Source: Candidatus Binatus soli
GTDB taxonomy: Bacteria > Desulfobacterota > Binatia > Binatales > Binataceae
DNA length: 64,000 nt
Assembly: GCA_002479255.1 (NCBI GenBank)
Contig: DLMJ01000042.1
Coordinates: forward strand, 16,942 to 80,941
Reading direction: 5' to 3'
The notes below the pieces were generated by a model. That model did no database searches. It had not been told where the DNA came from and worked only from the letters and a program-made list of their open reading frames with translations. This document shows, piece after piece, positions 3,754 to 48,585 of the stretch (positions within the stretch are counted from its first letter, which is position 1; every line of letters starts with the position of its first letter). Position numbers and translations under genes: made by a program.

Positions 3754-6017
<2,264 letters not shown>

Positions 6018-41949: not shown

Positions 41950-43395
41950 GTGACGGTTCGCACGCGCTTCGCGCCGAGCCCGACCGGCTCGCTGCATATC
42001 GGTAACGTCCGCTCGGGGCTGTTCGCCTACCTCTACGCGCGGCACAACGGCGGGCAGTTCATCGTGCGCATCGACGACACCGATCGCGAACGATCGACGA
42101 AGCAGTCGCTCGACGAAATCCTCGCGGACCTGAAGTGGCTCGGGATGGAGTGGGACGAAGGTCCGCCCGATGAGGCATACTTTCAGACCAATCGAGTCGA
42201 GCGGCATCGTGAAGCGGCGCTTAGATTGCTGCGCGAGCGAAAGGCGTATCCGTGCTACTGCTCGGCGGAGGAACTCGACGCCAGGCGCAAGCAGGCCGAG
42301 CGCGAGCGTCGCAGGCCCGTTTACGATCGCAAATGCCGCGGGCTCGGCTTTCCAGCGGATCTGGCGCTGCCCGACAAATCCGCCGGACGCAACTATACGA
42401 TCCGGTTCGCGATGCCGCTGGCTGGCGAGACGGTCGTCGATGATCTCGTGAAGGGCCGGATGGTCTTTCAGAACACCGAGCTCGACGACTTTATCATTGT
42501 TCGTTCGGACGGCTCGCCGATTTACAACTTCGCGAGCATTCTCGACGACGTGGACATGCGCATCACGCACATCGTTCGCGGCGACGACCACGTCTCGAAT
42601 ACCCCGCGCCAGATGCAGATGGCGTACGCGCTCGGGTTTACGCCGCCAGCCTTCGCACATTTGCCGCAAGTGCTGGGGCCCGACGGGTCTCCACTGTCAA
42701 AGCGCCACGGCGCGACTTCGGTGATCGCCTATCGCGAGAACGGCTATTTCCCGGAGGCGATGCTGAACTATCTGGCGCGCCTTGGATGGTCCCACGGCGA
42801 CCAGGAAATTTTCTCCAAGGACGAACTGATCAGTTATTTTGGCTTCGAGGCCTGCGGAAAATCAGCCGGCGTATTCAACGCCGAGAAATTGCTCTGGCTC
42901 AATTTCCATTACCTGAAGGAGCGGCCGATCCCACGGCTGGCGGCTGAGATCAAGCCATTCATCGCCAGGCGCGGATGGCCGATTCCGGGCGACGACGCGT
43001 GGCTCGAAAAGGCGGTCGCAACCCTGCACGAGCGCGCCAAGACGCTCGTCGAGCTGGTGGACTTTGCGTCGTTCTACCTGAAGGACGAGATCGAGATCGA
43101 TTCGAAAGCGGCGGCGAAATTCCTGAAGCCGGAAATCGCGGAACCAATCCGGGCGCTGGCTGCGGAGCTCGAATCGATCGAGGGCGAGGTCTCCGAGGCG
43201 TCGGTGCAGGCGGTTTTCGAATCGGTCCTCGCGCGATTCAACCTCAAGCTCGGGCAACTCGCGCAACCGGTCCGCGTCGCGCTCACCGGCGGCGCCGTCA
43301 GCCCCGGGATTTACGAGGTGATCGCGGTGCTCGGTAAACGCCGCACCGTCGATCGCCTGAACGCCGCCGTCCGCCTAATTGAGCAGCCTGCCTGA
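41950..43395 (+). CDS. gltX: Glutamyl-tRNA synthetase
   Basis: RFAPSPTGSLHIGN HIGH-region; class I fold. Confidence 0.9.
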   Translation: MTVRTRFAPSPTGSLHIGNVRSGLFAYLYARHNGGQFIVRIDDTDRERSTKQSLDEILADLKWLGMEWDEGPPDEAYFQTNRVERHREAALRLLRERKAYPCYCSAEELDARRKQAERERRRPVYDRKCRGLGFPADLALPDKSAGRNYTIRFAMPLAGETVVDDLVKGRMVFQNTELDDFIIVRSDGSPIYNFASILDDVDMRITHIVRGDDHVSNTPRQMQMAYALGFTPPAFAHLPQVLGPDGSPLSKRHGATSVIAYRENGYFPEAMLNYLARLGWSHGDQEIFSKDELISYFGFEACGKSAGVFNAEKLLWLNFHYLKERPIPRLAAEIKPFIARRGWPIPGDDAWLEKAVATLHERAKTLVELVDFASFYLKDEIEIDSKAAAKFLKPEIAEPIRALAAELESIEGEVSEASVQAVFESVLARFNLKLGQLAQPVRVALTGGAVSPGIYEVIAVLGKRRTVDRLNAAVRLIEQPA

Positions 43396-43471
43396 ACCAA
43401 CAGCGCGCCTGGTCACTGCGATCCGCTGCCCGGCACTTTCCCGCTGCTCATCCACATAGTACCTTTGTAGC

Positions 43472-44074
43472 ATGAGTGTACTTGTGCCCTACGTAGTCGA
43501 GCAGACCGGCCGCGGCGAGCGTTCTTACGATATCTTTTCGAGATTGCTCAAGGACCGGATCGTGTTCCTGGGCGGGACCGTCACCGACGACGTTGCCAAC
43601 CTGGTCACCGCGCAGCTCCTGTTCCTCGAGTCCGAGGATCCGGAGCGCGAAATAAACATGTACATCAACTCGCCGGGCGGATCGGTCACCGCCGGCCTGG
43701 CTATCTACGACACGATGCAATTCGTGAAGCCTCCTGTCTCGACGCTATGCGTGGGGCAGGCCGCCAGCATGGGATCTCTGCTGCTGGCCGCAGGAGCCAA
43801 GGGCAAAAGATACGCGCTGCCGCACTCGCGGATACTGATTCATCAGGTCTCCGGCGGGTTCGAGGGACAGGCGAGCGATATCGAGATTCACGCGCGCGAG
43901 GCGTTGCGTCTTCGCGAAATCCTCAACAACATCCTTGCTCATCATACCGGCCAAAATGCCAAGAAGGTCGAGAAGGATACCGACCGCGACAACTTCATGT
44001 CCGCGGCGCAGGCAGTCGAATACGGACTTATCGACGAAGTGATTTCCGGCCGGCCGCTCAAGGCCTCGCTCTAG
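43472..44074 (+). CDS. clpP: ATP-dependent Clp protease proteolytic subunit
   Basis: End-to-end ClpP similarity including GQAASMGS around the active-site Ser. Confidence 0.95.
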
Positions 44075-44092
44075 CCGAGGCCCGGCCTGCGC

Positions 44093-46502
44093 TTGGCCAT
44101 GGACGCGCAACATAACCTCGAAGGCCGGGCTGACCAAAAGATCGAACGGTTCCGAATTCGCGGGATGCATTGCGCGAATTGCGCGAGCATCATCGAAAAC
44201 GCCGTCGCGCCGGTTCCCGGCGTCATCGACGCCCATGTAAATTTCGCCGCCGAAACGCTCACCGCGCGCGTCAGCGACAAACTTGCTGCCGGTGAAATCG
44301 AGGCGAGGGTCGCGGCCGCCGGCTATAGCGCGATCGCCGAGTCGAACAGCATTGGCGCGGGCGAATCCGCTCTCGATCGCCAGGATGCGCGCCGCAACCT
44401 GCAGTGGGTAGTCTGCACTGCGATTGGCACGGCAGTCGTCATGTATTTGCAGCATCGCGAGAGCAGCGCCGCGCGCATCGCGACGCTCGTCGCCGCCACG
44501 ACACTGATGTTCACCGCCGGCCTGACCTTCTACCGCGGCGCATGGAGCGCCGCACGCAATCGCACCGCAAACATGGATACGCTGGTCGCGCTTGGCATCA
44601 GCGCCGCCTACTTCTACTCAATACTTACCACGTTTCCCGCTATCTTCTTCGCGGGTCCGCGATTCTTCGATACTGCCGCCGAGCTGATCCTTTTTATTCG
44701 CTTTGGCAAATTCCTCGAGGCGCGCGCTCGCGGCCGCGCGATGGCTGCGTTGCGATCCTTGCTGACCCTCGTCCCCGACGTTGCCACTGTGGTGCGCGAC
44801 GGCAAGGAGCGCGTCGTGCCCGTTTCCGAGTTGGCCGTCGGCGACATCGTGCTGGTCAGGCCCGCTTCCAGAATTCCGGTTGACGGTGTGATCGTCACCG
44901 GCGCCAGCGCCATCGACGAGTCGATGCTTACGGGCGAGTCGATGCCGGCGGACAAGTCGGCGGGCGATGAGGTCTCCGGCGGCACGCTGAACACCGCCGC
45001 TGCGATTACGCGTCGGCGCGCGATTTGTGCCGGCGGTGATCGTGACCGCGGCGCTCACCTTTTCTGTGTGGATGTGGTTCGGCCCGAGTCTCGTGATGGC
45101 GTTGACTGCGATGACCGCCGTGTTGGTGATCGCATGCCCGTGCGCGATGGGATTGGCGACGCCGACTGCGCTTATGGTCGGTAGCGGGCTCGGCCTGCGC
45201 GCGGGGATTTTGTTCAAGCGGGCATCCGCCCTCGAACTGATCACGAGAATCCGGGTCATGCTGTTCGACAAAACCGGCACGCTGACGGTCGGCCGGCCGG
45301 AACTCGAGTCGGTCGTCGCGCTCGACGGCGACGAGAATAGTGCGCTGTCCTTTGCGGCGATCGCCGCCGCCGGATCGATTCATCCGCTGTCGCGAGCCGT
45401 CACCTCCAGCGCGCAAACGCGAAACCTCGCGCCGCAATTCACTCCCGACAACTCACGCGAGATACCGGGCCTGGGCGTTACAGCCGAGCATCACGGAAAA
45501 CAGATCGCGCTTGGCAACGACCGGCTGATGACGCAGGCCGGCGCCGCTGTCGATTCTCGCGCCCGCGACGAGGCGGCTCGCATAGCAGCATCTGCGGCGA
45601 CGCCGCTGTTTCTCGCGATCGATCGCAAGGTGACGGCGGTGCTTGCTTTCCGCGATCCGGTCAAGGCCGAGGCACGCGGCGCGATCGCGGCGCTGCATCG
45701 GATGGGCATCCGCACGGTGATGATTTCCGGCGACAACGCTGAAGTCGTAAAGACCGTCGCTGCTCGATTGGGAGTCGACGAGTTCCATGCGCAACTGATG
45801 CCGGCGGACAAGATTGCGCTCGTCAAGCGGTACCAGGACTCCGGCCTGTTCACCGCGATGGTCGGCGACGGAATCAACGACGCGCCCGCAATTGCCGCCG
45901 CGGACATCGGAATCGCGATCGGCTCCGGCACCGACGCCGCCAAGGAAACCGGCGACGTCGTGCTCACCCGCGACGACTTGTACGACATCGTCCGCGCACT
46001 CGTGCTCGGCCGCGTGACGCTGAACAAGGTGAAGCAAAATCTTTTCTGGGCGTTTTTCTACAACGCGCTCGGAATTCCGATCGCGGCCGGCGTTCTGTAT
46101 CCGCGGTTTGGAATCATGCTGAATCCCGCCCTTGCCGGACTTGCGATGGCGCTGTCGAGCGTCAGCGTCGTCAGCAACGCGCTACTGCTCAATTTAACCG
46201 GCCCGCGAAAATTGCGGGCAGTGCGCGCCGAAATCGAAGCAGTGCCGGGCGCTGCTCCACCGAGTTCCTCGACTCCGCCACAAGCGCGCAGCGAGGTCCC
46301 TGAAAAGAAGGAGATCGCAATGGCAACGAAATTAAAATGCGAAAAATGCGGCTTCGAGACCGCGATGCCGACGCATTGCAATCGCCCGATGCACTCTGAA
46401 CGCGTCGGCCACGAAACCAGGCTGGTGTGCTGGATGGGTCCCGACTGCGGTGTCGCCGATGTACCCAAGCATTGCGATGCGCCCATGCGCGACGCCGCCT
46501 AG
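44093..46502 (+). pseudogene. copA: Cu(I)-translocating P1B-type ATPase (CopA-like), disrupted by a frameshift and a missing ~30-codon segment near 44990-45030; carries a Cys/His-rich C-terminal extension
   Basis: HMA domain GMHCANCAS, TGES, CPC, DKTGT, YN and MxxSS Cu-signature motifs. The frame switches from +2 to +0 between GGTLNTAAAI and FVPAVIV, and the conserved ...AQ.SKAPIQ.LAD... block is absent. Confidence 0.55.
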
Positions 46503-46595
46503 CACATACACACGACCGCTTTCATCGGGCCCATCGGGCTGCGACTATGGGCAATTGGGTGGGCATCGAGCCAGCTTCCAGCCGGGAGGATACGA

Positions 46596-47378
46596 ATGCC
46601 GAGCCGGGTTCATCAATTCTACGCGGTAGCTTTCGAGGAAAACTTTTCGCTCCGCCAGATAGCGCCCGCTTTTCCCGAGGCCAGGATATCGCCGCTCGAA
46701 ATGTTCGTGCCGATCGAACCCGACGGCGGCCTCTACGTCTTTCCCTTCGGCGCCATCGTCTCGCACGACGTTCCGGTCGAACAGCGCGAACGCATATTCG
46801 CACGCCTCACCCGCGCCATGCCAAAACTCACCACCCGGATCATTCGCGAGGATTACTCCGTGCTGGAGGATCCTGCCGCGCCGATCGGAATTTCCGGCGG
46901 GATGCTGCGGGTCGACAAGCTCACTTCCCAACGCGCAGAAATCGTCGCGCTGACGGTCGCTCAGAGCGCGGCGATGGAATACTACGAGCGAATCGTGGAC
47001 AGCCTCTTTGCGCGGACCGCACAGTTGGTCGATCGGATGGCGTCGCACGGCACCGTGCCGTATCGGATTACGCCCTTGCATCGCTTCATCGGCGAAGCGA
47101 TTTCGTCGCGCACCGAAGTTCTCGCCGTGCTCCATCTGCTCGACAAGCCCGACGCTGCATGGGAAGACCCCGCGATGGACCTCATCTACGACGACCTGCG
47201 CGATGAATTCGATCTCGTCGATCGTTACGCTGCGCTGACCAGCAAGCTGCAAAGCATCCAGGACTCGCTGGTTCTGGTCCTGGACGTCGCCCGCGACCGC
47301 CGCCTGGTATTGCTCGAAGTCGTTGTCGCGCTGCTGATTTTGCTGGAAATAATCTTGGGCGTCATTCACTTCACGTAG
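46596..47378 (+). CDS. DUF155 (RMD1/YagE-family) protein with a C-terminal TM helix
   Basis: Profile-like match to the DUF155 core (YVFPFGAIV..., KLTSQRAEIVALTVAQSAAMEYYE); GGGAGG SD 6 nt upstream. Confidence 0.65.
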   Translation: MPSRVHQFYAVAFEENFSLRQIAPAFPEARISPLEMFVPIEPDGGLYVFPFGAIVSHDVPVEQRERIFARLTRAMPKLTTRIIREDYSVLEDPAAPIGISGGMLRVDKLTSQRAEIVALTVAQSAAMEYYERIVDSLFARTAQLVDRMASHGTVPYRITPLHRFIGEAISSRTEVLAVLHLLDKPDAAWEDPAMDLIYDDLRDEFDLVDRYAALTSKLQSIQDSLVLVLDVARDRRLVLLEVVVALLILLEIILGVIHFT

Positions 47379-48005: not shown

Positions 48006-48320
48006 TTAGTCACGCCATCGCACCCAGTCCGGATGATGTTTGTGGATCCATTCCGGATGGTGGTCGAACCACCAACCGCGGTCGCGCCATACGTGATGCT
48101 CGTCCCAGTCGCCGTCGACGGCGCGCCACTGGGGGTACACCTTGACCCATTCGGGATGATGGTGCCAGACCCATGCGGGGTGGTGTTCGTGCCACCAGCG
48201 CGCGTCGTGCCATACGTGATGGTTGTCCCAATCACCGTAGTTGCGCGCATGTGAAACCGCCGGCGCAGCGGCGAAGACGGCTGTCAGTGCTGCGGCGGCG
48301 AATATGGTTCGAAGTTTCAT
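48006..48320 (-). CDS. Secreted His/Trp-rich repeat protein (two ~35-aa repeats with HHVW...HHPxWV motifs); candidate periplasmic metal-binding protein
   Basis: Signal peptide MKLRTIFAAAALTAVFAAAPAVSHA, AGGAGG SD 7 nt upstream; 18 His and 14 Trp in an ~80-aa mature chain. Confidence 0.7.
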   Translation of the reverse strand: MKLRTIFAAAALTAVFAAAPAVSHARNYGDWDNHHVWHDARWWHEHHPAWVWHHHPEWVKVYPQWRAVDGDWDEHHVWRDRGWWFDHHPEWIHKHHPDWVRWRD

Positions 48321-48509
48321 TCCTGGTGCCTCCTGGATAGCCTCACGAGAATAATACGACGGATCGATAGTGGCAGTTTCAAGGCGGCCAGAAAATCGCC
48401 AAGGATCAGCAAGCTTCGGCCCGATTAGCCCCAATTCGTGGCTGCCTCGCAAAATCTACAGAATGAAGAACGCGAATGCGGTCAAGCTGCCGACGGCATA
48501 CGAGTCGGT

Positions 48510-48585
48510 TGGTGGGCAGGGAGTGAATCGAACACTCGACACAAGGATTTTCAGTCCTTTGCTCTACCGACTGAGCTACCTGCCC
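48510..48585 (-). tRNA. tRNA-Phe (anticodon GAA), CCA encoded
   Basis: Cloverleaf: acceptor GGGCAGG/CCTGCCC, D-arm TAGCTCAGTCGGTAGAGC, anticodon loop CTGAAAA, T-arm GGTTCGATTCC. Confidence 0.9.

What the first reader, a model, noticed from the sequence alone, without database searches (positions are those of the whole stretch)
46250..46502. Cys/His-rich C-terminal module of the Cu-ATPase with its own Shine-Dalgarno and ATG
After the last TM helix the ORF continues into MATKLKCEKCGFETAMPTHCNRPMHSERVGHETRLVCWMGPDCGVADVPKHCDAPMRDAA, which has 7 Cys and 5 His. This segment is more AT-rich than the surrounding DNA. It is preceded in-frame by a near-ideal RBS (AAGAAGGAGatcgcaATG). It could therefore be made independently as a ~60-aa metallochaperone-like peptide even though copA upstream is broken. 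Alternatively it is a fused C-terminal metal-binding domain.
Basis: seen in the sequence. Interest (0 to 1): 0.5.

Follow-up and report, generated by a model that had tools for sequence, protein, structure and literature searches.

The report
New Cys/His module of copper pumps
The 60-residue cysteine/histidine/methionine-rich tail of this (broken) copper-export pump gene belongs to a conserved, unnamed family of small metal-binding-type modules that bacteria and Asgard archaea fuse to either end of copper pumps or encode as a separate 60-residue protein; here it keeps its own ribosome-binding site and start codon, so it can probably be made on its own.

Summary
The sequence is as described: a 60-aa ORF segment (46320-46502), in frame with the 3' part of copA and preceded by AAGGAG-N6-ATG. 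The residue counts were wrong (6 Cys and 4 His, not 7 and 5), and the AT-richness is not unusual. copA is broken by a 104-nt frameshifting deletion at 45010|45011.

The module belongs to a real, conserved family with no Pfam, NCBIfam or PDB match. It consists of two homologous about 28-aa repeats, C-x2-C…HC-x2-PM and LVCWMG-x2-CG…H[C/H]-x2-PM. Relatives were found in 229 species genomes, including Binatia (the window's lineage), other bacteria and many Asgard archaea.

In 70 of 88 loci it lies in or next to a P1B ATPase, almost always of Cu(I) type. It is fused C-terminally in most Binatus relatives and in Loki, and N-terminally in Heimdall/Hod. It also occurs free-standing, for example after clpP in Binatia that lack copA there.

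In the Binatus clade the linker varies, but RGGAG and the ATG/GTG start are invariant. Single-nucleotide indels switch between fused and separate genes without harming the module (dN/dS about 0.16).

Best reading: an accessory cytosolic metal-binding or chaperone-like module of Cu pumps, translatable independently. Metal binding and internal initiation are inferred, not shown.

The parts
46320..46502 (+). 60-aa Cys/His/Met-rich module ('X'), ATG to TAG. In frame with the copA 3' fragment and also a complete cistron of its own.
   Evidence: Translation. Homologues 93-95% identical, many called as 60-aa genes. AF2 pLDDT 87.9, all-beta. dN/dS 0.158.
46308..46313 (+). Shine-Dalgarno AAGGAG, 6 nt upstream of the ATG at 46320. 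It is encoded inside the linker as Lys-Glu.
   Evidence: Duplex energy with the anti-SD is -8.8 kcal/mol, the best of 36 in-frame start codons in the ORF. The RGGAG core is invariant in 21 Binatus-clade sequences although the encoded residue varies K/R/G.
46323..46403 (+). Repeat 1 (residues 2-28): LKC-x2-CG-x5-P-x-HC-x2-PMH. Conserved C7, C10, P17, H19, C20, M24.
   Evidence: hhalign of half 1 against half 2: probability 81%, E 1.4e-6, 38% identity. Conservation in 72 unbiased representatives.
46413..46499 (+). Repeat 2 (residues 32-60): LVCWMG-x2-CG-x5-P-x-H[C/H]-x2-PM. Conserved C37, W38, M39, G40, C43, P49, H51, M56.
46200..46307 (+). Pro/Ser/Ala-rich linker between the last TM helix of CopA and the module.
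   Evidence: Junction alignment: 40-80% column identity, with indels mostly in multiples of 3. Single-nt indels in L003-6 and L026 uncouple the two reading frames.
45011..46199 (+). copA 3' part (frame 0): TM4 CPC, DKTGT P-domain, N-domain, TM5 NX6YNX4P, TM6 MXXSSX5N. This is a P1B-1 Cu(I)-ATPase signature.
   Evidence: The same motifs were checked in the relatives.
44093..45010 (+). copA 5' part (frame 2): N-terminal HMA domain (GMHCANC), TM helices and the first part of the A domain.
45010..45011 (+). Junction of a 104-nt deletion relative to intact relatives. It causes a frameshift, so copA is a pseudogene unless this is an assembly error. There is short similarity (CGGTyCGC) at both borders in the intact relatives.
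   Evidence: Alignment with L010, L014, L003 and L011. The junction 28-mer is absent from metagenome contigs.

Best explanation
Window 46320-46502 encodes a member of a conserved, so far unnamed family of about 55-60-aa cytosolic modules. Each module is built from two homologous zinc-ribbon/rubredoxin-knuckle-like repeats, and each repeat offers Cys-x2(5)-Cys plus His-Cys(His)-x3-Met.

The family is an accessory partner of Cu(I)-exporting P1B-1 ATPases. It occurs as a C-terminal tail, as an N-terminal head, or as a separate small gene beside the pump. This parallels the way HMA domains and CopZ chaperones relate to each other.

Inferred mechanism:
- The module binds a soft metal, Cu(I) or possibly structural Zn, through its Cys/His/Met ligands on the cytosolic side.
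- It then delivers, buffers or senses metal for the pump.

In the Binatus clade, to which this window belongs, the module sits in frame behind CopA yet keeps a strong SD and an ATG/GTG start. One gene can therefore give full-length CopA-X and, by internal initiation, free X. One-base indels in the linker convert the arrangement into two genes without loss of X.

In this window copA itself is inactivated by a 104-nt frameshifting deletion. The only plausible functional product of the locus is therefore the free 60-aa protein started at 46320.

Shown: family membership, architecture, association with Cu-ATPases, conservation of the SD and start, purifying selection, and the copA lesion.
Inferred: metal binding, chaperone or sensor role, and internal initiation.
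For: - Family and distribution: about 50 clusters at 90% identity, mostly 58-63 aa; 229 species genomes; Binatia, other bacteria, Heimdall/Hod/Loki/Hel/Odin and Bathyarchaeota; 114 representative hits.
- Association with pumps: a P1B ATPase lies in or next to the module in 70 of 88 loci. There are C-terminal fusions (834-1019 aa), N-terminal fusions (928-1027 aa) and free genes.
- Pump type: almost all are CPC / NX6YNX4P / MXXSSX5N with 1-2 HMA domains.
- Co-occurrence with known copper and metal modules: YHS in a Loki CopA tail, TRASH-X proteins, and a CopR-like HTH+TRASH regulator beside the Heimdall loci. Other neighbours are an RND pump plus an HMA protein, and an FTR1 permease.
- Conserved ligand-type residues: C7, C10, H19, C20, M24, C37, C43, H51 and M56 at 85-100% in an unbiased set.
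- Fold: confident all-beta model, with only weak zinc-ribbon/desulforedoxin-like structural neighbours.
- Independent translation: free-standing orthologues lie at the same locus without copA.
- Fused and unfused states: an unfused state with an intact 769-aa CopA is seen in four independent assemblies.
- SD strength: the SD+start is the top-ranked in-frame site in 12 of 15 Binatus-clade fused ORFs, and also in L030, L033, L044, L082 and L083.
- SD conservation: RGGAG and (A/G)TG are invariant while the linker varies.
- Control: in N-terminal fusions no relic start is kept before the pump part.
- Purifying selection on X: median dN/dS 0.158.
- copA lesion.
Against: - No experiment or metal-site geometry is available. 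Coordinates of the model could not be inspected.
- Each repeat could simply hold structural Zn.
- SD and start conservation is partly confounded by shared ancestry and by GC-rich codon preference (GAG, AAG).
- M/V is also a conservative amino-acid change.
- The SD is weak or absent in some fused lineages (L028, L032-L042, L066, L073, L085), so internal initiation is not a universal family feature.
- Linker indels are mostly multiples of 3. This argues that the fused protein is itself selected.
- Some free-standing members sit next to unrelated genes, for example an alpha/beta hydrolase.
- The window's X differs from L010 by 3 nonsynonymous and 0 synonymous changes. The numbers are tiny but are compatible with relaxed constraint.
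- The 104-nt deletion might be an assembly artefact.
Confidence: 0.7

Rival explanations
1. The module is only ever a fused C-terminal domain of CopA in this clade. The SD-like AAGGAG and the ATG are relics of an older two-gene arrangement, or are just Lys-Glu…Met codons. No free peptide is made. In this window it is then simply the tail of a dead gene.
For: - Most close relatives have one continuous 834-844-aa ORF.
- Linker indels are mostly in multiples of three, so the reading frame is preserved.
- Some fused lineages have lost the SD or the start (L066, L073, L028, L032-42).
- GAG and AAG are the preferred codons in a GC-rich genome.
Against: - Free 60-aa genes with the same N-terminus MATKLKC exist at the same locus in Binatia without copA.
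- Frame-uncoupled versions keep X intact.
- RGGAG is invariant while the encoded residue changes K/R/G.
- Only ATG or GTG occur at the start position over dS up to about 1.
- In N-terminal fusions the relic start of the pump was not retained.
Confidence: 0.3
2. The module is a structural zinc ribbon pair that does not handle the transported metal. It would act as a protein-protein docking or autoregulatory tail, for example pump oligomerisation, partner binding or redox sensing. The link to copper is indirect.
For: - JGI's automatic name for one member is a DUF1610 Zn-ribbon protein.
- Each repeat has exactly four Cys/His candidates.
- Terminal extensions of P-type ATPases are often autoregulatory (PMC11970713).
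Against: - Three invariant Met residues and the H-C-x2-P-M loops are unusual for structural Zn sites and typical of Cu(I) ligand sets (established knowledge of CusF/CopC/cupredoxin sites).
- The module recurs with HMA, YHS and TRASH modules and with Cu-type pumps, RND+HMA and FTR1.
- Free and fused paralogues coexist side by side (L047, L079 and others), as for chaperone/MBD pairs.
Confidence: 0.25
3. The copA lesion is an assembly or consensus artefact. The organism then has an ordinary intact CopA-X fusion like L010, and nothing is special about this copy.
For: - There is a single lesion in an otherwise intact gene that is 90+% identical to intact relatives.
- The borders share a short repeat, which favours mis-assembly or slippage.
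- The junction was not seen in any other assembly.
Against: Nothing in the sequence marks an assembly break. Deletions between short repeats are also a normal mutational outcome. Read-level data are not available.
Confidence: 0.25

Closest known systems
HMA metal-binding domains of P1B ATPases and their free homologues CopZ/Atox1 (PF00403)
   Same: - Small cytosolic Cys-containing module found fused to Cu(I) pumps (N- or C-terminal, sometimes in tandem).
- Also found as a free-standing gene beside the pump.
- Free and fused copies coexist.
   Different: - No sequence relation (no Pfam hit).
- Predicted all-beta knuckle fold instead of the beta-alpha-beta-beta-alpha-beta ferredoxin fold.
- Ligand set is Cys/His/Met in two repeats instead of one GMxCxxC.
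- The pumps carrying X also carry HMA domains, so X is additional, not a replacement.
E. coli CopA(Z): pump and chaperone from one gene by programmed -1 frameshifting (Meydan 2017; Drees 2017; cited via PMC7558416)
   Same: One copA gene could yield both the pump and a small soluble metal-binding protein identical to one of its terminal domains.
   Different: - Here the small product would be the C-terminal module, made by internal initiation at a conserved SD+ATG/GTG.
- In E. coli it is the N-terminal HMA domain, made by frameshift-induced termination.
- The mechanism proposed here is inferred only.
TRASH / YHS domains (PF08394, PF24273, PF04945), e.g. archaeal CopR/CopT/CopM of Sulfolobus-type cop loci
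   Same: - Small Cys-based metal modules of copper-resistance loci, found free, in regulators, or fused to P1B pumps.
- X co-occurs with them: Loki CopA has YHS followed by X, there are TRASH-X proteins, and a TRASH regulator lies next to X-copA in Heimdall.
   Different: - X does not match these models.
- X lacks the C-x19-22-C-x3-C spacing.
- X is a duplicated unit with invariant His and Met.
Zinc-ribbon / rubredoxin-knuckle modules (YfgJ two-Zn ribbon, RPB9/RPC10, desulforedoxin)
   Same: - Short beta-hairpin knuckles with CxxC.
- A tandem pair in about 60 aa.
- Desulforedoxin also uses two adjacent residues (Cys-Cys) as ligands (from memory), comparable to the HC pair here.
   Different: - The second 'knuckle' is HC-x2-PM, not CxxC.
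Cys/His-rich C-terminal tails of plant Zn/Cd pumps (HMA2/HMA4)
   Same: A C-terminal Cys/His-rich cytosolic extension of a P1B pump, with metal-binding and regulatory roles (PMC6255694, listed).
   Different: - The plant tails are long and low-complexity (di-Cys and His stretches), belong to P1B-2 pumps and are not found as free genes.
- X is a compact folded domain on P1B-1 pumps.

Membership tests
The new X family (as defined here) | Two-repeat signature C-x2-C-x8-HC-x3-M … LVCWMG-x2-C-x7-H[CH]-x3-M in about 55-60 aa | tested here: met
   The window peptide has every conserved residue except that position 57 is R instead of the commoner H. Profile hits of the closest members have E 1e-34 to 1e-42.
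The new X family (as defined here) | Located in or next to a heavy-metal pump gene | tested here: met
   It is in frame behind copA in the window. A P1B ATPase is present in 70 of 88 related loci.
HMA / CopZ (PF00403) | Match to the HMA profile, GMxCxxC loop, ferredoxin-like fold | tested here: not met
   There is no HMA hit for the 60 aa at E<=1. The model is all-beta. The HMA domain of this copA is at the N-terminus.
TRASH / YHS | Match to PF08394/PF24273/PF04945; C-x19-22-C-x3-C spacing | tested here: not met
   No hit. The Cys spacings are 2, 9, 16, 5 and 8 residues.
Classical zinc ribbon (e.g. Zn_ribbon_LapB, DUF1610) | Two CxxC knuckles; match above the family threshold | tested here: inconclusive
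   [not shown]
P1B-1 Cu(I)-ATPase (host gene copA) | TM4 CPC, TM5 N-x6-YN-x4-P, TM6 M-x2-SS-x5-N, DKTGT, HMA N-terminus | tested here: met
   VIACPCAMGLAT, DKTGT, NLFWAFFYNALGIP, MALSSVSVVSN and GMHCANC are present (translation; the same in relatives). TIGR01525 scores 390 bits and TIGR01511 scores 346 bits on the 3' fragment.
P1B-1 Cu(I)-ATPase (host gene copA) | Intact reading frame | tested here: not met
   A 104-nt deletion and frameshift lie at 45010|45011.
One-gene-two-products copA (CopA(Z)-like logic) | A second, small product demonstrably made from within copA | not testable with these tools
   Only indirect evidence is available: the SD+start is conserved and top-ranked, and free-standing orthologues exist.
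Metallochaperone / metal-binding domain in general | Binds the transported metal | not testable with these tools
   This is inferred from conserved Cys/His/Met and from genomic and domain context.

The most novel reading that the evidence does not exclude
X is a previously unrecognised Cu(I) chaperone/sensor fold shared by Bacteria and Asgard archaea. In Binatia and Lokiarchaeia a single copA ORF is proposed to yield two proteins: the pump with a C-terminal X domain, and a free X protein made by internal translation initiation. This would be a second, mechanistically different solution to the 'pump plus chaperone from one gene' problem known from E. coli CopA(Z). The broken copA in this window would then be a natural experiment in which only the chaperone survives.
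Probability: 0.35. Interest if true: 0.7.

Novelty: new variant of a known kind. Interest (0 to 1): 0.55.

Why it matters
Accessory metal-binding domains and chaperones decide how P1B copper pumps are loaded and regulated, yet only a few types are characterised (HMA, His-rich, TRASH/YHS, cupredoxin-like, hemerythrin-like).

This module is a compact, confidently folding, cross-domain conserved candidate for another type. It is currently annotated only as 'hypothetical protein', or it is hidden inside 'Cu+-exporting ATPase'. It is abundant in soil Binatia and in Asgard archaea.

It is small enough for direct biochemistry and NMR. The conserved internal SD and start give a simple, testable case of two products from one transporter gene. 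Naming the family would also improve annotation of several hundred genomes.

Tried and rejected
- Base composition: the tail is not compositionally distinct, so there is no support for a foreign or AT-rich insert.
- Pfam, NCBIfam, PDB sequence and PDB profile searches on the module found nothing significant.
- Foldseek against PDB gave nothing with E<2. The AFDB library was not available.
- Desulforedoxin kinship: hhalign probability 23% over the first knuckle only.
- Promoter and terminator scans and Rfam over 43.0-47.5 kb gave nothing useful.
- RNA folding around the SD showed no special structure, z -0.68.
- The deletion junction was searched in JGI metagenome contigs with no match, so whether the lesion is real stays open.
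- Literature: no paper contains the motif strings, and no paper links P1B pumps with a zinc-ribbon-type MBD in the searchable library.
- P0006 and P0052-55 share only 'LKCEKCG' with the family and are not homologues. P0006 looks like a chimera on a 628-nt contig.
- Context clusters c2 and c13 are antisense shadow ORFs in GC-rich DNA and were ignored.
- L001, L007, L016 and L018 (long-read assemblies) carry several frame errors and were not used to judge fused versus unfused state.
- The 'invariance' is partly circular because it used regex-selected sequences. I replaced it with the unbiased set.
Full report
**1. What is in the sequence**

Window 46320-46502 (+) translates to MATKLKCEKCGFETAMPTHCNRPMHSERVGHETRLVCWMGPDCGVADVPKHCDAPMRDAA*. 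It is the last part of ORF 45027-46502.

That ORF carries the HAD/P-domain and the C-terminal half of the E1-E2_ATPase profile. It scores 390 bits on TIGR01525, heavy-metal P-type ATPase. The P1B-1 Cu(I) signatures are all present: CPC, DKTGT, NLFWAFFYNALGIP and MALSSVSVVSN.

The peptide is preceded by GAAAAGAAGGAGATCGCA-ATG. This is a canonical AAGGAG at 46308-46313 with a 6-nt spacer.

- There are 6 Cys, 4 His and 5 Met, not 7 Cys and 5 His.
- GC is 0.60 against 0.63 for the window, which is the 26th percentile and therefore unremarkable.

The statement that copA is broken is right. Compared with four intact relatives, the window lacks 104 nt between 45010 and 45011. This removes about 35 codons of the A-domain/TM3 region (Pfam profile positions 82-123 are missing) and shifts the frame. 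It is the only lesion. Its junction was not found in any other metagenome contig, so I cannot tell a real deletion from an assembly error.

**2. The tail is a member of a real family**

- A word-indexed search with the 60 aa returned 14 proteins of 67-95% identity. Nine of them are free-standing 60-61-aa genes.
- A profile search widened this to about 50 clusters, nearly all 58-63 aa.
- An exhaustive HMMER search of 1.84 billion cluster representatives found 114 proteins at E<=1e-3.
- A scan of one genome per species found relatives in 229 genomes.

The closest genomes are 'Candidatus Binatus/Binataceae' and unclassified 'deltaproteobacteria' MAGs, which is the window's lineage. More distant members come from other bacteria and, prominently, from Heimdall-, Hod-, Loki (Prometh-), Hel- and Odinarchaeota and from Bathyarchaeota.

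No Pfam or NCBIfam model matches the module, and neither a sequence nor a profile search finds a PDB chain. Sources call the free proteins 'hypothetical protein' and the fused ones 'Cu+-exporting ATPase'. I found no paper containing the motif.

**3. Anatomy of the module**

The two halves are homologous: hhalign probability 81%, E 1.4e-6, 38% identity. Repeat 1 is LKC-x2-CG-x5-P-x-HC-x2-PMH. Repeat 2 is LVCWMG-x2-CG-x5-P-x-H[C/H]-x2-PM.

I checked conservation in 72 near-full-length domains from the unbiased representative search:

| Residue | Conservation |
|---|---|
| C7 | 100% |
| C10 | 97% |
| P17 | 93% |
| H19 | 100% |
| C20 | 97% |
| M24 | 99% |
| C37 | 99% |
| W38 | 88% |
| M39 | 94% |
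| G40 | 96% |
| C43 | 99% |
| P49 | 88% |
| H51 | 85% (otherwise mainly C, 11%) |
| M56 | 88% |

Position 52 is C or H.

AlphaFold2 on a 37-sequence alignment gives a confident (pLDDT 87.9) all-beta model with five short strands.

The fold class is therefore a tandem pair of zinc-ribbon/rubredoxin-type knuckles, with no close solved relative. Invariant Met residues next to His-Cys are typical of Cu(I) ligand sets rather than structural Zn sites. That point rests on general knowledge and is not tested here.

**4. What it is attached to**

I clustered the ORFs within +/-5 kb of the module in 88 loci. The one dominant neighbour, present in 70 loci, is a P1B ATPase.

- In most Binatus-clade relatives (L010-15, 17, 19, 20, 22-25, 27) a single 834-844-aa ORF runs from the HMA domain through the pump into the module, exactly as the window's frame does. 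Several of these come from short-read assemblies. A member named 'Cu+-exporting ATPase' of 836 aa occurs on six contigs.
- The same C-terminal fusion occurs in other bacteria (L028, L030-33, L035, L036, L042, L044) and in Loki/Hel archaea (943-1019 aa).
- One Loki pump reads HMA-ATPase-YHS-X.
- In Heimdall/Hod archaea the module is at the N-terminus, X(-X)-HMA-HMA-ATPase. It often has an extra free copy just upstream and a divergent Lrp/AsnC-HTH+TRASH (CopR-like) regulator.
- Almost all these pumps carry the Cu(I) signatures and 1-2 HMA domains.
- Other architectures and contexts also point to metals. There are about 220-260-aa proteins with TRASH followed by X. X lies after an RND pump and an HMA protein in L059 and L064. 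X lies before an FTR1 permease in L069 and L088.
- A minority sit beside an alpha/beta hydrolase.

Both ends of a P1B pump are cytosolic (established topology), and the free proteins have no signal peptide. The module therefore works in the cytosol.

**5. Fused or separate?**

Both states occur, even among close relatives.

- In L003-L006 an intact 769-aa CopA ends at a TGA 16 nt before the module's ATG. This is one sequence type seen in four independent assemblies, both short-read and long-read. The only difference from the window in that stretch is one extra base in the linker.
- L026 is uncoupled by a 1-nt deletion between the SD and the start, and L009 also reads in different frames.
- In many other Binatia (L002, L008, L029, L038-41, L043, L045, L046, L052-54) there is no copA at the locus. 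The 60-aa gene then directly follows clpP, with its own SD or a 4-nt overlap-type junction.

The module is under purifying selection throughout, with a median dN/dS of 0.158 over 205 pairs with dS>0.2.

**6. Evidence for an internal start in the fused genes**

- In an alignment of 21 Binatus-clade junctions the roughly 90-nt linker is variable (40-80% identity, with indels). RGGAG and the TG of the start codon are invariant.
- The codon before GAG changes AAG/AGG/GGG (Lys/Arg/Gly). This preserves the purine run but not the amino acid.
- The start position is only ever ATG or GTG, over synonymous divergences up to about 1.
- I scored every in-frame ATG/GTG/TTG of each fused ORF for anti-SD pairing. 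The module's start ranks first in 12 of 15 Binatus-clade genes (including the window), second in two and sixth in one.
- It also ranks first in L030, L033, L044, L082 and L083, and 2nd-4th of about 35 in most Loki genes.
- As a control, the N-terminal fusions keep no start codon at the X-to-HMA junction.
- Internal second copies of X have L/S/R at the 'Met' position. The Met is therefore not a structural requirement.

Counter-evidence:
- Linker indels are mostly multiples of three, so the fused frame is also selected.
- The SD is weak or gone in L028, L032-42, L066, L073 and L085.
- The sequences are not phylogenetically independent.
- GC-rich codon bias favours GAG and AAG.

I therefore rate internal initiation in fused genes as plausible (about 0.5), not shown.

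**7. Interpretation for this window**

The segment is the local copy of this module, in the fused frame that is usual for its clade. It has a complete SD/ATG cistron structure and no defect. All signature residues are present. R57 replaces the commoner H but also occurs in other members.

Because copA upstream has lost 104 nt, full-length CopA-X cannot be made. What can be made is the free 60-aa protein. An N-terminally truncated 491-aa fragment from the GTG at 45027 is also possible, but it would lack TM1-3 and most of the A domain.

Versus its nearest relative L010 the module has three nonsynonymous and no synonymous differences. This is too few to call relaxed selection.

**8. Comparison with known systems**

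Functionally the nearest analogue is the HMA-domain/CopZ pair: the same module fused to the pump and free beside it. For the possible dual expression the nearest analogue is E. coli CopA(Z), where frameshifting yields a chaperone from the pump gene (references in PMC7558416).

The module is not a member of HMA, TRASH or YHS. The tests were made and not met. Its relation to classical zinc ribbons is only a weak fold resemblance.

I classify it as a new variant of a known kind: a new family of accessory metal-binding module or small partner protein of copper pumps.

**9. Limits**

- No metal-binding, expression or read-level data are available.
- The model coordinates could not be inspected.
- AFDB could not be searched.
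- Only the best 80 of 229 genomic loci were examined.

Noticed in passing
window 45010|45011 (copA): The 104-nt deletion lies between two short similar strings in the intact relatives (…ACGGTTCGCGC… and …GCGGTCGCCGC…). This pattern fits slippage or recombination, or mis-assembly. It is the only lesion in the gene.
   Followed up: partly
L003-L006 junction (L003 5975-6003) and L026 about 5990-6003: Single-base indels in the linker toggle copA and the module between one ORF and two genes. In L003-type strains the copA stop TGA is followed directly by an A7 run and the SD (CCCTGAAAAAAAGGAG). I did not test whether any recoding happens there.
   Followed up: partly
L003 2443-3027 (-), L002 3772-4359 (-), L018 2412-3302 (-); absent between gltX and clpP in the window (43396-43471): Many Binatia carry a ~190-aa gene between gltX and clpP with a sub-threshold Cupredoxin_1 hit (E 0.0033) and a C-x2-H-x3-M loop (…FYCAVHQPEM…). 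This is a possible blue-copper-type protein in the same conserved locus as the module. The window, L010, L012 and L013 lack it.
   Followed up: partly
window 48006-48452 (-): This ORF has a signal-peptide-like start (MKLRTIFAAAALTAVFAAAPAVSHA) followed by His/Trp-rich repeats (HHVWHD…WWHEHHPAWVWHHHPEW…HHPEWIHKHHPDW). It is conserved in at least five related loci (cluster c28) and has no Pfam hit. It may be a secreted metal-binding protein.
   Followed up: partly
window 48510-48585 (-): tRNA-Phe (GAA).
   Followed up: yes
window 41950-47378 and L002-L029: Conserved Binatia synteny: guaA, gltX, (cupredoxin-like gene), clpP, [copA]-X, then either DUF155 (RMND1-like, window 46596-47378) or DUF885. 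The clpP here is not next to clpX. X directly follows clpP when copA is absent, which raises a possible clpP-X operon.
   Followed up: partly
L047, L048, L051, L055, L056, L060, L061, L068, L070, L072 (about 4750-5400, - strand): Heimdall/Hod loci carry a divergent Lrp/AsnC-HTH + TRASH regulator (CopR-like) next to X and X-copA. This gives a Sulfolobus-type cop locus layout, with X in the place of the small TRASH protein.
   Followed up: partly
L069 6019-7356; L088 6019-7352; L059 2967-6160; L064 1616-6159: Free-standing X genes lie next to FTR1-family permeases (two Asgard loci) and downstream of AcrB/CusA-type RND pumps. In L064 an HMA-domain protein sits in between.
   Followed up: partly
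P0006 (103 aa) and P0052-P0056: A separate ~130-aa Cys-rich family (…CA.PGCPGP…LKCEKCG…CFYCGR…) shares only the 'LKCEKCG' string with X. P0006 joins its N-terminus to X at exactly that string on a 628-nt contig, so it is probably a chimeric assembly.
   Followed up: no
window 46320-46499 vs L010 6001-6180: There are three amino-acid differences and no synonymous difference between the window's module and its closest relative (dN 0.021, dS 0). This may hint at relaxed constraint after copA loss, but the counts are too small to judge.
   Followed up: partly
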